Shown here: in pieces, positions 36,623 to 40,304 of the stretch
How positions within the stretch are numbered: position 1 is the first letter of the stretch
How the letters are laid out: every line of letters begins with the position of its first letter
Source: Deferribacterales bacterium
Lineage (GTDB): Bacteria; Chrysiogenota; Deferribacteres; Deferribacterales; Geovibrionaceae
DNA length: 64,000 bases
NCBI GenBank assembly: GCA_050251945.1
Contig: JBFWLW010000008.1
Span: 32,001 to 96,000 of the forward strand
Direction of reading: 5' to 3'
Notes under the pieces: generated by a model
The model's input: only the letters and a program-made list of their open reading frames with translations
What the model was told of the DNA's origin: nothing
Database searches by the model: none
Made by a program: the position numbers and the translations under genes

Positions 36623-37435
36623 TCAGCGGACGATGGTGTAAGTAACCGTATTGTCCGCCCAGTCCGACGGGTCGAGCCTGTTCAGCCTGCGGACGAGATC
36701 ACTTATCATGCCCGTTGATGACGCGCTGTAGGTTATGAACATCCCCTCCTGAAAACCGAGGGTCAGAAGGTCGTCCTTCTTTTTCGTGGCGATTATTTTA
36801 ATCTTTTCCTCGGCGGACTTACCCTTAAACCCCGGCAGAAACTGCGCCGTCAGCACAATTCTGCACTCGTTGTCCGGATAGACGTAAGTCTTTCCCTTCT
36901 GCGCAAAATTATTTCTCTGAACGCTGTTCGGCAGAAGAAGCGTAACAGAACCGTCCGTAGCTATTGAAAACAGATAGACGTAGGCATCCTCTGTCACTCT
37001 GTAGCTTATGCTGACAATTTCCCCCTGTTTGACCTGCGACCTCGACATGGCAAGGTCAACTGCAAAACCATCGGTTTTCTCCGGCTGATACGGTTCCACA
37101 ACAGCCTTTATCCTCACCGTATACTCGCTGTTGCTCCCATGGGCAAACCCCTGCGAAATAATGTCGTATTTCAGTATGCGCCCCTTCACCGACGCATAGA
37201 TGAGGTCTTCGGCAAGCTGACTGTTCTGCACAAGGGTTCTGGACTTTATAAATATCCCGCACGCCGTTTCAAGTGCGTTTCTGCGGGCATCGTTCAGGGC
37301 GCGCATGGCTGTCTCCTTCATGGTGTCGGAATCTCCCATGACAGAAACACCGTCCGCCTCAACGGTTATAGTGTTTTCCGCACTGTGAGCTGCAAATGCG
37401 GCAAAAAGCAGCATGAGAAAGAGAAATCTTTTCAT
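36623..37435 (-). CDS. Exported protein with FlgT/LPP20-like N-terminal region and DUF4384-like C-terminal domain
   Basis: Signal peptide (AAHSA), ALNDARRNALETACG, DAYVYLFSIATDGSVTLLLPN. Confidence 0.75.
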   Translation of the reverse strand: MKRFLFLMLLFAAFAAHSAENTITVEADGVSVMGDSDTMKETAMRALNDARRNALETACGIFIKSRTLVQNSQLAEDLIYASVKGRILKYDIISQGFAHGSNSEYTVRIKAVVEPYQPEKTDGFAVDLAMSRSQVKQGEIVSISYRVTEDAYVYLFSIATDGSVTLLLPNSVQRNNFAQKGKTYVYPDNECRIVLTAQFLPGFKGKSAEEKIKIIATKKKDDLLTLGFQEGMFITYSASSTGMISDLVRRLNRLDPSDWADNTVTYTIVR

Positions 37436-39483
37436 CAGTACAGTTCCCCGAAACTCTTGTCGTCAATCTTTCCTTTAAGAAAAGCATCCATAAGTTTGGA
37501 TTTCACTGGCTTTTTCAGCTCATCCATGCCTTTGGAAAGCTGAGCGGAGTTAATAAGCCCCTTTTCAAAGAGCGCTTTCAGTTTATTTTTCCCTGTCTCT
37601 TCGTCCATCAGTCTGGATTTTTCCCAGTTGCGGCTGACAGTGAAATCACCGTTGCCTATCACCTGCGGATCCTGCTGCTGCCCTTTAAGCCGGAAAGCAG
37701 CCTTCGCAACGTTATTCTTTATGTATTCCGATATGTCGTTTATGGTCACCCATACGCCGCTTCCGCCTTTCCCTGTGAGTCCTTCCTTAAAGAAATGGCT
37801 GAACAGACCGGATTTATACTCGCTGTCGTCCTCCCACGACTGCTGGTTTGCAGCCGAAGAGGTTATTATCACTCTGCCGGAACCCACTGTCTTTATTATG
37901 TCAGGTGCCGCCATCATACCCACAATTGGCTTGCCGCCCTTTGCCACGATGGATTTTCCGCTGCCTGTGAAACATGCATCGAGCGCAACAAGAACTCCCT
38001 TCGCGTTGGAGTTATCCACCATATCCTCAATATAGCTGACCCTGACCGCAGTGTCCGACAGCGAATCGGGATCGGAAAGAACGCTGTCATAGGGTACGAT
38101 GAGCGCATCCGTTACTTTTTCGCCGGATGTGACAGGCGCTCCGTGACCGGAAAAATAGACATACATGTATCCGTCCCATGTCCTTATTTTGCGCAATGCC
38201 GCAACTATGTTGTTGCGGGTGGCGTTTTCGTTGAGCAGAAGAACCGCGTTCTCTTTGGGGATGCCGCCGTATCTTCTGTCCGTCAGTATGTTATATACGT
38301 CCTGCGCATCCGCAGAGGCGTATTTCAGTGTCGGTATATCGCTGCGACCTTTATAGTCTATACCTATCACCACCGCATAAGCGTCTGTTCTGTAAGGCGG
38401 CAGTTCGCTCTCTGCCGTCTGTGGTTCAGCAGCCGGAACTGGAACTGCGGCATAGGTCTGCTGAGCGGGCTTGCCTGCGTCCGCAGTTGAGCCGAGCACC
38501 ACGTCAAAATATGAAGGGCGGGTTCCGCGGATAACGTACAGAGTTATCTTTGCGGACGGAGCCTGAGAACCTATGAATGAAACGAAATTTTCAGCGGAGG
38601 TCACAGGCGTTCCGTTGACATCGGCGATGATGTCGCCCGTGTGTATTCCGGCAGTTTCCGCAGGACTATTCGGCATTACACCGACGACCTCAACGCCGGA
38701 CAGACCTGCCCTGAACCGCGTATTCGACGTGACCAGCCTTGTTATCATAAGCTGTTTTTCCGCGCTTAGAGCCTGAATATTCACACCGAGATATCCGCCG
38801 TTCTGCTGCACTGTCTGCGCGGTCTGCACAGGAGCGGCATAGGTCGGGAGTGCGGACGCAACCACAACCGTCGGCTGTTTTTTGAGATTGGAGGCATACG
38901 CCCTAAGCTCGCCGGAGAGCGCTATCTCCTCGTTCAGTTTTTTAAAGCAGGCGTCCATGGCAGCAGAGAGTGCCTCCGCCATAAGTGTTTTATACGGAAT
39001 GACCGGAGATACCACCGACCTGCTCTCTTTCACGCTTCTGGCTGTGGTCTCCCAGATGGTCATACGGTTTTTATCGGTTACGGTGGCTTTTACACCGAGG
39101 TTAACGCGGTATTTCATTCCGAATCCTGCGGCAACCTGTACTCCTTCGAATGAAAAGTCCTGAACGTCAGCAGATATCAGCGCATCCACGTTATCAGGAA
39201 AACTGCCCGGCGCAGCCGCTACAGCCGATGTGAACGCAACCGGGAAATACTTTTTCTCCATGATCCTAAGATGTTTTCCGGAGGGAATATTCTCTGTGGC
39301 GCTGCCTATGACATAGGACTTAACCAGATTCTCATCGGGCAGCACGATACCCACCCGCATATTCACCGTGTTCACCCTGTCGGGCACAGAACCTGCGTTC
39401 TCCACCATGGGGACGTCTATGACACTTGCGCAGCCTGACAGCATAACCATTGATAATATAAAAAAATATCTGAGCGTTTTCAT
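37435..39483 (-). CDS. Lipoprotein with PDZ domain and caspase-family (peptidase C14) domain
   Basis: Lipobox LSGC; PDZ (YLGVNI...SPAETAGIHTGDII); C14 motifs AVVIGIDY, YFSGHG, LDACFTG, GLFSHFF. Confidence 0.88.
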   Translation of the reverse strand: MKTLRYFFILSMVMLSGCASVIDVPMVENAGSVPDRVNTVNMRVGIVLPDENLVKSYVIGSATENIPSGKHLRIMEKKYFPVAFTSAVAAAPGSFPDNVDALISADVQDFSFEGVQVAAGFGMKYRVNLGVKATVTDKNRMTIWETTARSVKESRSVVSPVIPYKTLMAEALSAAMDACFKKLNEEIALSGELRAYASNLKKQPTVVVASALPTYAAPVQTAQTVQQNGGYLGVNIQALSAEKQLMITRLVTSNTRFRAGLSGVEVVGVMPNSPAETAGIHTGDIIADVNGTPVTSAENFVSFIGSQAPSAKITLYVIRGTRPSYFDVVLGSTADAGKPAQQTYAAVPVPAAEPQTAESELPPYRTDAYAVVIGIDYKGRSDIPTLKYASADAQDVYNILTDRRYGGIPKENAVLLLNENATRNNIVAALRKIRTWDGYMYVYFSGHGAPVTSGEKVTDALIVPYDSVLSDPDSLSDTAVRVSYIEDMVDNSNAKGVLVALDACFTGSGKSIVAKGGKPIVGMMAAPDIIKTVGSGRVIITSSAANQQSWEDDSEYKSGLFSHFFKEGLTGKGGSGVWVTINDISEYIKNNVAKAAFRLKGQQQDPQVIGNGDFTVSRNWEKSRLMDEETGKNKLKALFEKGLINSAQLSKGMDELKKPVKSKLMDAFLKGKIDDKSFGELY

Positions 39484-40304
39484 CAGTAGAGTTCTCCGAA
39501 TTTTTTAGCGTCAATCTTATCGCTAAGGAACGATTCCAGAAGTTTTGACCTATCGCCGCCAAGCTCGCCGATGGCTTTGGTGAGCTGTGCGGAATCTATA
39601 TATCCGTGTTCAAAGGCGGCGCGCAGTCTGTCTTTTTCCGTTGCGCCGTCCGGAACGTAGGGTTCCGGTTCAGGGACTTTCTCACCGGACTGCCCCCTGA
39701 GATAATTGCTGACGGCGTAGGAATTGAGCATACTATCCAGCGCTTTCATGAAAGCATCACCGGCGGCGGCATACAATCCGGTGTTCCAGACCTCCTGCGC
39801 CTTTTTTGTGTCGGTACAGCTGTATTCGACGTTGGATATGGACGAAACCGTGTCGGAGCGGTAAAGTTCGCGTCCGCTATTATCCATGAAGTGGGTGCGG
39901 AGGTTCAGTCTGGGTGTTACGCCGCAGGTGTTGAAACCTCTGACTGTCGTATTGAAATCGAAATCGTGAAGCTCAACGGAGATTATTAGCCCTTTGTCCG
40001 AATTTGGTGACTGTAAAACCTCCGTTTCGGTGAAATACTGCGGCAAAATATCTTTCGCAGCCTTATTTATCTGTTTAGCTATAGGCATGACCATAAGCTG
40101 CTTAACACCGGAACCGTTGTCTTCCAGCTTCTGCGAAGGGTTGTTCTCATCCATCGGCAGATACGCAGCCTTAACGTACATCTTCTGCATAGCGTGCGCG
40201 GCAGGAAGTTTGGATGCGGACACATCCTGATAGGGCACTTCGTATCTGAAAGTACATGCGGAAATGACAAATGATACTAATAGAAAAGCGAAAATACGGA
40301 ACAT
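39483..40304 (-). CDS. Lipoprotein paralogous to the non-catalytic ends of the adjacent caspase
   Basis: Lipobox ISAC; C-terminal ~50 aa alignable with the caspase C-terminus (both end FGELY). Confidence 0.8.
   Translation of the reverse strand: MFRIFAFLLVSFVISACTFRYEVPYQDVSASKLPAAHAMQKMYVKAAYLPMDENNPSQKLEDNGSGVKQLMVMPIAKQINKAAKDILPQYFTETEVLQSPNSDKGLIISVELHDFDFNTTVRGFNTCGVTPRLNLRTHFMDNSGRELYRSDTVSSISNVEYSCTDTKKAQEVWNTGLYAAAGDAFMKALDSMLNSYAVSNYLRGQSGEKVPEPEPYVPDGATEKDRLRAAFEHGYIDSAQLTKAIGELGGDRSKLLESFLSDKIDAKKFGELY

What the first reader, a model, noticed from the sequence alone, without database searches (positions are those of the whole stretch)
36623..40304. Exported caspase system: lipoprotein PDZ-caspase, protease-less paralog with the same tail, and DUF4384 partner
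Seen in sequence: three genes coupled by identical TGATG overlaps, all with export signals (two lipoboxes, one signal peptide). The middle gene has PDZ plus an intact peptidase C14 His-Cys dyad (SGHG, DAC). The upstream 273-aa lipoprotein ends EKDRLRAAFEHGYIDSAQLTKAIGELGGDRSKLLESFLSDKIDAKKFGELY. The caspase ends GKNKLKALFEKGLINSAQLSKGMDELKKPVKSKLMDAFLKGKIDDKSFGELY, clearly the same module. Their N-domains also align loosely by eye (LIISVELHDFDF vs LISADVQDFSF; AAAGDAFMKAL vs SAAMDACFKKL). The small protein therefore looks like the caspase with PDZ and protease removed. Established: caspases are activated by dimerisation, and PDZ domains gate envelope proteases such as DegS/HtrA. Inference: the tail is a SHOCT-like oligomerisation tag, and the paralog acts as a decoy or scaffold tuning a periplasmic or surface caspase, with the DUF4384 protein as adaptor, inhibitor or substrate. 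I know of no description of this arrangement.
Basis: partly seen in the sequence, partly recalled or inferred. Interest (0 to 1): 0.82.

Follow-up and report, generated by a model that had tools for sequence, protein, structure and literature searches.

The report
Exported caspase with reusable docking tail
Three adjacent genes encode a caspase-like protease, a sister protein that lacks the protease but keeps the same 56-residue tail, and a conserved partner, all predicted to be exported; related bacteria have dropped the protease but kept the tail several times, so the tail likely lets a protease-free subunit plug into and steer the protease in the cell envelope.

Summary
Observation confirmed. 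A (273 aa) and B (682 aa: PDZ + C14, intact His447/Cys504) share a 56-aa tail (54% identity) and a CsgG/LptE/PqiC-fold N-domain; C is FlgT_N-like + DUF4384. The trio is in 5 of 68 genomes of the phylum, under purifying selection.

The tail is rare: 67 hits in 1.84 billion representatives (33 on C14 proteases, 15 on protease-less proteins, 10 fragments, 9 partial). It marks a subfamily of C14 proteases, most with export-like N-termini, with swappable front ends, in Nitrospirota, Syntrophales, Nitrospinota and Deferribacterota.

Correction: A is not B minus PDZ/protease. It is the orthologue of a neighbouring second caspase that lost its protease; such loss or gain recurs at least 5 times. C follows tail-less caspases too, so it is a general caspase partner.

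Best reading (0.45, inferred): the tail assembles subunits in trans, so A is an adaptor giving B's protease a second recognition domain. Rivals: localisation tag, decoy, shared scaffold. Binding is untested (complex tool unavailable). The tail is SHOCT-like but below cut-off, and published SHOCT tests did not support oligomerisation. No description found in nine paper searches; this scan noted the operon before in another genome (e1-4223909).

The parts
39483..40304 (-). Gene A: 273-aa predicted lipoprotein (Cys17), CsgG/LptE/PqiC-fold N-domain + linker + tail, no protease
   Evidence: purifying selection
39690..40256 (-). A N-domain (aa 17-205); nearest to the N-domain of caspase-bearing first genes of tandem operons (L093_2964, P0030, L130, P0032)
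   Evidence: fold Z 11.1 to 2iqi, rmsd 3.8, 157 aligned
39486..39650 (-). A tail (aa 219-273): four predicted helices, two SHOCT-like hairpins, ends FGELY
   Evidence: dN/dS 0.03-0.14
37435..39483 (-). Gene B: 682-aa predicted lipoprotein (Cys18): N-domain, PDZ, C14 protease, tail
38878..39432 (-). B N-domain (aa 18-202), CsgG/LptE/PqiC/PelC fold
   Evidence: 2iqi Z 11.9, PelC Z 10.4, curli complex 6lqh Z 10.2
38479..38805 (-). B PDZ domain (aa 227-335), HtrA-type, GYLGV loop
37630..38403 (-). B C14 protease domain (aa 361-618); His447 (38143-38145), Cys504 (37972-37974); invariant Asp392 and Asp502
37438..37605 (-). B tail (aa 627-682), continuing from the helix that follows the last protease strand
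36623..37435 (-). Gene C: 270-aa predicted secreted protein, FlgT_N-like domain (about aa 19-118) + DUF4384 (aa 135-219); stop abuts convergent ccdA-like gene

Best explanation
B is a PDZ-caspase-like (C14) protein with an intact His-Cys dyad, predicted to be a lipid-anchored envelope protease, and A is a protease-free sister protein that likely joins it through the shared four-helix tail and so acts as an adaptor. Shown: family members are built as [swappable front end]-[conserved C14]-[tail]; tandem copies keep near-identical protease+tail but unlike front ends; and the protease was dropped while front end and tail were kept, repeatedly, next to an intact tail-bearing caspase wherever the context was seen. 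Inferred steps: (1) A and B are exported and outer-membrane anchored, facing the periplasm; (2) tails bind tails, so one protease serves two recognition domains and the second protease copy is dispensable; (3) clustering, and PDZ binding of exposed C-termini, brings protease domains together for self-processing at conserved lysines after Cys504; (4) cleavage is after Arg/Lys; (5) C is a general partner of exported caspase-type proteases (inhibitor, substrate or scaffold) that binds the protease domain, not the tail. The physiological substrate is not identified; envelope protein surveillance is the likeliest role.
For: Tail confined: 67 hits in 1.84 billion representatives = 33 with C14, 15 protease-less (10 with the A/B-type N-domain), 10 fragments under 110 aa, 9 partial matches. 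Front ends vary: lipoprotein domain, PDZ, TPR, ankyrin, WD40, S41+PDZ, PEGA. Four tandem pairs (L093, L042, L044, L112) are 95-97% identical over protease+tail and 19-31% over N-domains. L093 has the same gene order as the window with the first gene still carrying C14; A and B group with its first and second genes (support 96/96 and 99/94). The protease-less state needs 3 changes on 38 rows, one origin rejected (p-AU 0.0007), and 6 changes (5 forced) on 32 rows with wider sampling. One protease-less group contains a dead-dyad intermediate (P0046: SGYG, DAG). 13 of 13 protease-less tail ORFs in loci L021-L166 (redundant; three lineages) lie beside a tail-bearing C14 gene. A's tail is more conserved than its N-domain (49/52, 49/52, 38/52 versus 162, 133, 105 of 186). 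Top fold match is MALT1 (Z 21.6), tied within 1 with metacaspase 4 (Z 20.8). Asp392, Asp502, Lys510, Lys515, Lys518 conserved.
Against: No binding, activity, localisation or expression was shown. Published experiments on one SHOCT domain did not support oligomerisation (PMC3581485 abstract). A's tail has drifted to 54-62% identity from its neighbour's tail in all pairs checked, so it is not held identical. The tail also occurs on unlike domains (LamG P0268, DUF4410+SHOCT P0246) whose context was not seen. Many tail-bearing caspases have no protease-less neighbour. The tail-only tree does not reject one origin of protease-less tails (p-AU 0.18), so front-end swapping could mimic some independent losses. 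Dimer activation is not stated for bacterial orthocaspases.
Confidence: 0.45

Rival explanations
1. The tail is an address label: a SHOCT-like amphipathic module that binds a membrane surface or an envelope machine. A and B share a location but do not bind each other, and A works on its own as a binding lipoprotein.
For: SHOCT is the top Pfam family by members matched, 6 of 32 tails, best E 0.0054. An Atlas neighbour cluster of A is 33% SHOCT. PMC11237479 predicts that SHOCT-like domains anchor disparate domains to membranes, and PMC3581485 found no oligomerisation. The tail sits on LamG, PEGA-like and DUF4410 proteins.
Against: An address label should be spread over many envelope proteins, yet each of the 5 positive genomes of 68 has only A and B, and 43 of 48 non-fragment carriers are C14 proteins or share their N-domain. 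Net charge is near zero.
Confidence: 0.25
2. A is a decoy (c-FLIP-like, recalled analogy): it pairs with B through the tail and blocks productive protease dimers, setting an activation threshold.
For: Same co-occurrence and selection data as the best reading; dead-dyad P0046 exists; the tail follows the last protease strand, near where caspases dimerise (interface position recalled).
Against: A's own, distinct N-domain is strongly conserved (dN/dS 0.06-0.10), and ancestral-type operons carry two active proteases with these two N-domains. That fits supply of a second specificity better than inhibition. Decoy and adaptor roles are not exclusive.
Confidence: 0.17
3. Both tails dock on a third protein, most simply C, which would build a ring-like scaffold through its FlgT_N-like domain.
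For: 14 of 15 tail-bearing genomes tested hold a close C orthologue; C is directly downstream of 20 of 41 dereplicated tail-caspases; larger clusters hold CsgG, FlgO, FlgT_N, SLH and GNA1162-like genes.
Against: C occurs without the tail in 10 of 14 C-positive genomes of one order and directly follows tail-less caspases; in G042 and G166 it lies on another contig than the caspase/protease-less pair.
Confidence: 0.1

Closest known systems
Bacterial C14 caspase homologues (orthocaspases / metacaspase-like proteases; PMC3501461, PMC5756287)
   Same: C14 fold, His-Cys dyad, accessory interaction domains; signal-peptide-like N-termini and high abundance in Nitrospirae and Deferribacteres were noted in passages read.
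   Different: Lipoprotein anchor with a CsgG/LptE-fold domain, a C-terminal tandem SHOCT-like tail, protease-less tail paralogues and a FlgT_N-DUF4384 partner were not in the passages read.
MALT1 paracaspase and c-FLIP/caspase-8 pairs
   Same: Best fold match (Z 21.6, rmsd 4.0, 216 aligned); metazoan C14 members are activated by dimerisation; protease-dead partners (c-FLIP mechanism recalled).
   Different: Cytoplasmic and eukaryotic; c-FLIP keeps a pseudo-protease, whereas A has none; 21% identity; dimer activation untested here.
Csx29-Csx30 (Craspase) and DdvA-DdvS
   Same: Caspase-type proteases; one group of Csx30 C-terminal domains is DUF4384; DdvA has a periplasmic CHAT domain (abstract).
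   Different: CHAT rather than C14; tied to CRISPR and sigma/anti-sigma genes, none seen next to this trio; C has no anti-sigma part.
SHOCT domain PF09851
   Same: Short C-terminal two-helix unit with Gly-Ile turn; tail halves are repeats (E 9e-5); sub-threshold matches.
   Different: Two hairpins, 56 aa, invariant Gln/Ser/Phe/terminal Tyr; below Pfam cut-off.
CsgG / LptE / PqiC / PelC / FlgT envelope lipoprotein fold and FlgT_N
   Same: A and B N-domains match this fold; C's N-domain matches FlgT_N-type domains (PF16548 on 2 of 120 listed homologues; 9hmf_C E 0.0033).
   Different: Fused to a protease or tail; no pore or partner barrel gene in the trio; ring formation untested.
DegS/HtrA PDZ proteases
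   Same: HtrA-type PDZ next to an envelope protease.
   Different: Serine versus cysteine protease; PDZ precedes the protease and is absent from many family members.

Membership tests
Peptidase C14 (caspase-like) | Pfam PF00656 above cut-off | tested here: met
   44.4 bits vs 21.4
Peptidase C14 (caspase-like) | His-Cys dyad and caspase fold | tested here: met
   H447, C504, each in at least 90% of 35 rows; fold Z 19-22 to MALT1, metacaspases, caspases
Peptidase C14 (caspase-like) | Proteolytic activity, Arg/Lys P1 | not testable with these tools
   Asp392 aligns with the Asp of metacaspase-4 GCVND; its S1 role is recalled
Paracaspase/caspase-type activation | Activation by dimerisation | not tested
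SHOCT (PF09851) | Score above curated cut-off (27 bits) | tested here: not met
   0 hits for the window tails at E<=10; 6 of 32 tails weak, best E 0.0054
SHOCT (PF09851) | About 30-aa C-terminal two-helix unit with conserved Gly | tested here: met
   predicted helices 620-640/646-657 and 663-669/675-681; internal repeat
DUF4384 (PF14326) | Score above cut-off | tested here: met
   68.2 bits vs 27
FlgT_N (PF16548) | Profile match of C's N-domain | tested here: inconclusive
   no hit for C itself; annotated on 2 of 120 listed homologues; tblastn E 4e-6 to a FlgT_N protein of this genome
CsgG/LptE/PqiC/PelC lipoprotein fold | Structural match of N-domain | tested here: met
   Z 9-12 over 120-168 residues in both models; no Pfam family hit
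Lipoprotein | Signal peptidase II lipobox and lipidation | tested here: inconclusive
   motifs by eye and by pattern in 25 of 35 family rows; no predictor run
Known defence systems (PADLOC; EACC1-caspase; type III-E) | System-specific partner genes and model above cut-off | tested here: not met
   only a generic caspase model on B; NF047832 81 vs 140 bits; flanks are ccm/ccdA-like, pilin-assembly and proS-like genes read from their translations

The most novel reading that the evidence does not exclude
A bacterial envelope caspase platform: arrays of exported C14 proteases with exchangeable sensor domains are wired together by a dedicated tail, tuned by repeatedly evolved protease-dead or protease-free subunits, and controlled by a FlgT_N-DUF4384 protein that is a general inhibitor or substrate of caspase-type proteases. 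It would be an extracytoplasmic counterpart of the adaptor/decoy logic of animal caspase signalling.
Probability: 0.3. Interest if true: 0.85.

Novelty: new variant of a known kind. Interest (0 to 1): 0.6.

Why it matters
What bacterial caspase homologues do outside cell death, and how they are switched on, is largely open; the 2017 review read names only one characterised orthocaspase. This three-gene unit is the smallest form seen here of a cluster type that reaches six exported caspases in a row, so it is a tractable test case. It offers two concrete handles: a 56-aa module whose job in trans can be tested with short constructs, and a conserved DUF4384 protein that may be a caspase inhibitor or substrate. 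That would also bear on why DUF4384 recurs beside C14 and CHAT proteases.

Tried and rejected
Complex prediction of B(361-682) with A's tail: tool not available, so there is no result on binding. Expression: no RNA holder listed; two runs are only guessed as RNA and hold mostly relatives at 85-95%; no evidence either way. Promoter/terminator scan: 8 and 9 sites versus 3.8 and 5.0 in shuffles, no promoter-like site between A and the upstream gene; uninformative. Tail in viral contigs: none of 55 candidates confirmed. Fold of the tail alone was not searched; whole-model searches were filled by other domains, so nothing is claimed about a new fold. Tail tree has too few columns. Rejected: recent A/B gene conversion in this genome (tail dS 1.4); A as a decaying pseudogene; PDZ binding the terminal ELY as the tail's main job (many tail-caspases, including those paired with protease-less genes in L037 and L038, lack PDZ); tail needed for C linkage. 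Weak tail hits near E 1e-4 in genome searches (G208, G298, G836, G1014, G1048, G1159) were not counted; only G208 and G298 were inspected and showed no tail ORF. Paper searches that found no description of this system: (open-access library only). Word search of earlier scan findings: none.
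Full report
1. Observation. 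The three ORFs, the 1-nt TGATG overlaps, the PDZ and C14 domains with His447/Cys504, DUF4384 in C and the shared tail are all present. The tail match is far beyond chance (0 of 2000 shuffles). The N-domain match is weak pairwise (9 of 2000) but clear between family profiles (96.9%, E 1.7e-10). Export signals are read by eye. An 85%-identical homologue of A is named Seleniivibrio woodruffii, so the host is inferred to be a close Deferribacterota relative. GC of the trio (0.49-0.51) is near that of its flanks (0.47-0.48).

2. Conservation. Of 68 genomes in the phylum, 5 carry the tail, each twice, and 6 carry a close C orthologue. The trio is intact in G004, G005 and G006 at the same site and in G009 at another site. 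All domains are under purifying selection. A's tail (dN/dS 0.03-0.14) is more conserved than A's N-domain, though it has no protease in cis. It therefore does something in trans (inference).

3. The tail. A 31-row profile against 1.84 billion representatives gave 67 hits: 33 with C14; 15 without C14 (10 with the A/B-type N-domain; others with LamG, DUF4410+SHOCT, a PEGA-like domain akin to caspase P0234, or no family); 10 fragments under 110 aa; 9 partial matches. In genome samples it was found at E<=0.001 in 5 of 121 (order of G041), 9 of 251 (order of G042), 4 of 401, 5 of 120 and 9 of 351; these counts include a few weak hits that I set aside, and many genomes are incomplete. Both models fold it as four helices with pLDDT about 82-96; its halves are repeats. 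It is SHOCT-like but below cut-off. PMC3581485 (part 1 of 4 read) reports that its experiments did not support oligomerisation; PMC11237479 (passages) predicts membrane anchoring.

4. The family. Tail-bearing C14 proteins form a tight group from Nitrospirota, Syntrophales, Nitrospinota and Deferribacterota records. Front ends are exchanged: two kinds of lipoprotein domain, PDZ, TPR, ankyrin, WD40, S41+PDZ. They often sit in arrays: six caspases in L030 and five in L028, with CsgG, FlgO, FlgT_N, SLH, GNA1162-like and transglutaminase genes in the L033/L035/L039/L096 clusters. Four tandem pairs are 95-97% identical over protease+tail but 19-31% over N-domains; six other pairs from arrays are 73-82% and 12-19%.

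5. Origin of A. L093 has the window's gene order with C14 still in the first gene. On an N-domain tree of 38 rows, A groups with that first gene and B with the second (long branches flagged). An A+B clade and a single protease-less clade are both rejected. With representatives added (32 rows, near-duplicates left out) the protease-less state needs 6 changes, 5 forced by well-supported branches. One such group includes the dead-dyad P0046. Direction (loss rather than gain) is inferred, and front-end swapping could inflate the count, since the short tail tree does not reject one origin. All 13 protease-less tail ORFs with this N-domain in L021-L166 (redundant) adjoin a tail-bearing caspase; a partial one at a contig end (L279) has no visible partner.

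6. Gene C. It has 677 homologue clusters, the 117 aligned at 49-74% identity. It lies directly downstream of 20 of 41 dereplicated tail-caspases, versus 5 of 77 tail-less caspase ORFs; that control set is mostly from other phyla and includes some truncated genes. In one order 14 of 121 genomes have a close orthologue but only 4 of them have the tail. 12 of those 14 have a caspase gene or fragment within 1.5 kb, as do 9 of 15 distant paralogues. 14 of 15 tail-bearing genomes tested have C. C is thus a partner of exported caspases in general. DUF4384 is also one of the Csx30 C-terminal groups and is often fused to proteases (bioRxiv 10.1101/2022.08.17.504292, passages), and accompanies cyanobacterial orthocaspases (PMC7475262, passages). 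Its N-domain resembles FlgT_N-type lipoprotein domains (that 9hmf chain C is FlgP is recalled).

7. Structure. B's model has four confident, mutually unplaced domains (pLDDT 84.8, pTM 0.48). The protease matches MALT1 and metacaspases about equally. The N-domains match the PqiC/LptE/PelC/CsgG/FlgT fold; the nearest named Atlas cluster of A is 34% Lipoprotein_16. Invariant Asp392 and Asp502 suggest Arg/Lys specificity (pocket assignment recalled; PMC5756287 passages say only caspases cut after acidic residues). The +2 residues (Thr, Ala) fit outer-membrane sorting by the E. coli rule (recalled).

8. Mechanism. Ancestral-type operons supply two recognition domains on near-identical proteases. 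Losing one protease while keeping its recognition domain and tail is easiest to explain if tails assemble the subunits, so that A serves as an adaptor in trans (0.45). Rivals: address label (0.25), decoy (0.17), common scaffold (0.10).

9. Novelty. C14 proteases, including ones with signal-like N-termini, are known (PMC3501461, passages), and a periplasmic CHAT domain is known in DdvA (PMC11506125, abstract). Nine searches of the open library found no account of this tail, its protease-less carriers or the C partner; PMC4452313 (passages) was irrelevant. Verdict: real, conserved, an undescribed variant of bacterial caspase systems with a testable assembly hypothesis. Interest 0.6.

Noticed in passing
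window:40450-40575: Palindromic intergenic repeat with up to about 60 genome matches per position; REP-like by appearance (label recalled).
   Followed up: partly
window:40599-40813: Second element with 52-bp inverted arms (92% alike) and a few copies elsewhere in the genome; MITE-like by appearance.
   Followed up: partly
L289:4706-6028 (G000:C10): A second C14 protein with a signal-like N-terminus and no tail, directly after flagellar fliP/fliQ-like genes of this genome.
   Followed up: partly
L288:4357-9143 (G000:C1): CsgG/FlgT_M-like lipoprotein, FlgT_N protein and CHASE2 adenylate cyclase in a row; possible scaffold relatives of the system.
   Followed up: partly
L292:719-13366 (G016): Tail-less cluster of three caspase-like genes with a C orthologue and an exported serpin (PF00079, E 4e-125), suggesting a protease/inhibitor network.
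   Followed up: partly
L217:2-1480: A distant C paralogue follows a gene ending in a CHAT-like motif (by eye, not scanned).
   Followed up: no
L033, L028, L027, L095: PIN-, MNT/HEPN- and MazF-like small genes (by eye) are interspersed in the caspase arrays.
   Followed up: no
L201:1267-2022: C orthologue whose N-domain is replaced by a short caspase fragment, apparently a deletion fusion.
   Followed up: no
P0270, P0271, P0274, P0281: 2000-2650-aa multi-WD40 proteins ending in C14 plus a divergent tail.
   Followed up: partly
window:30749-31150: PIN-like gene (by eye) between an MFS transporter and the ccm genes, kept in G004-G006.
   Followed up: no
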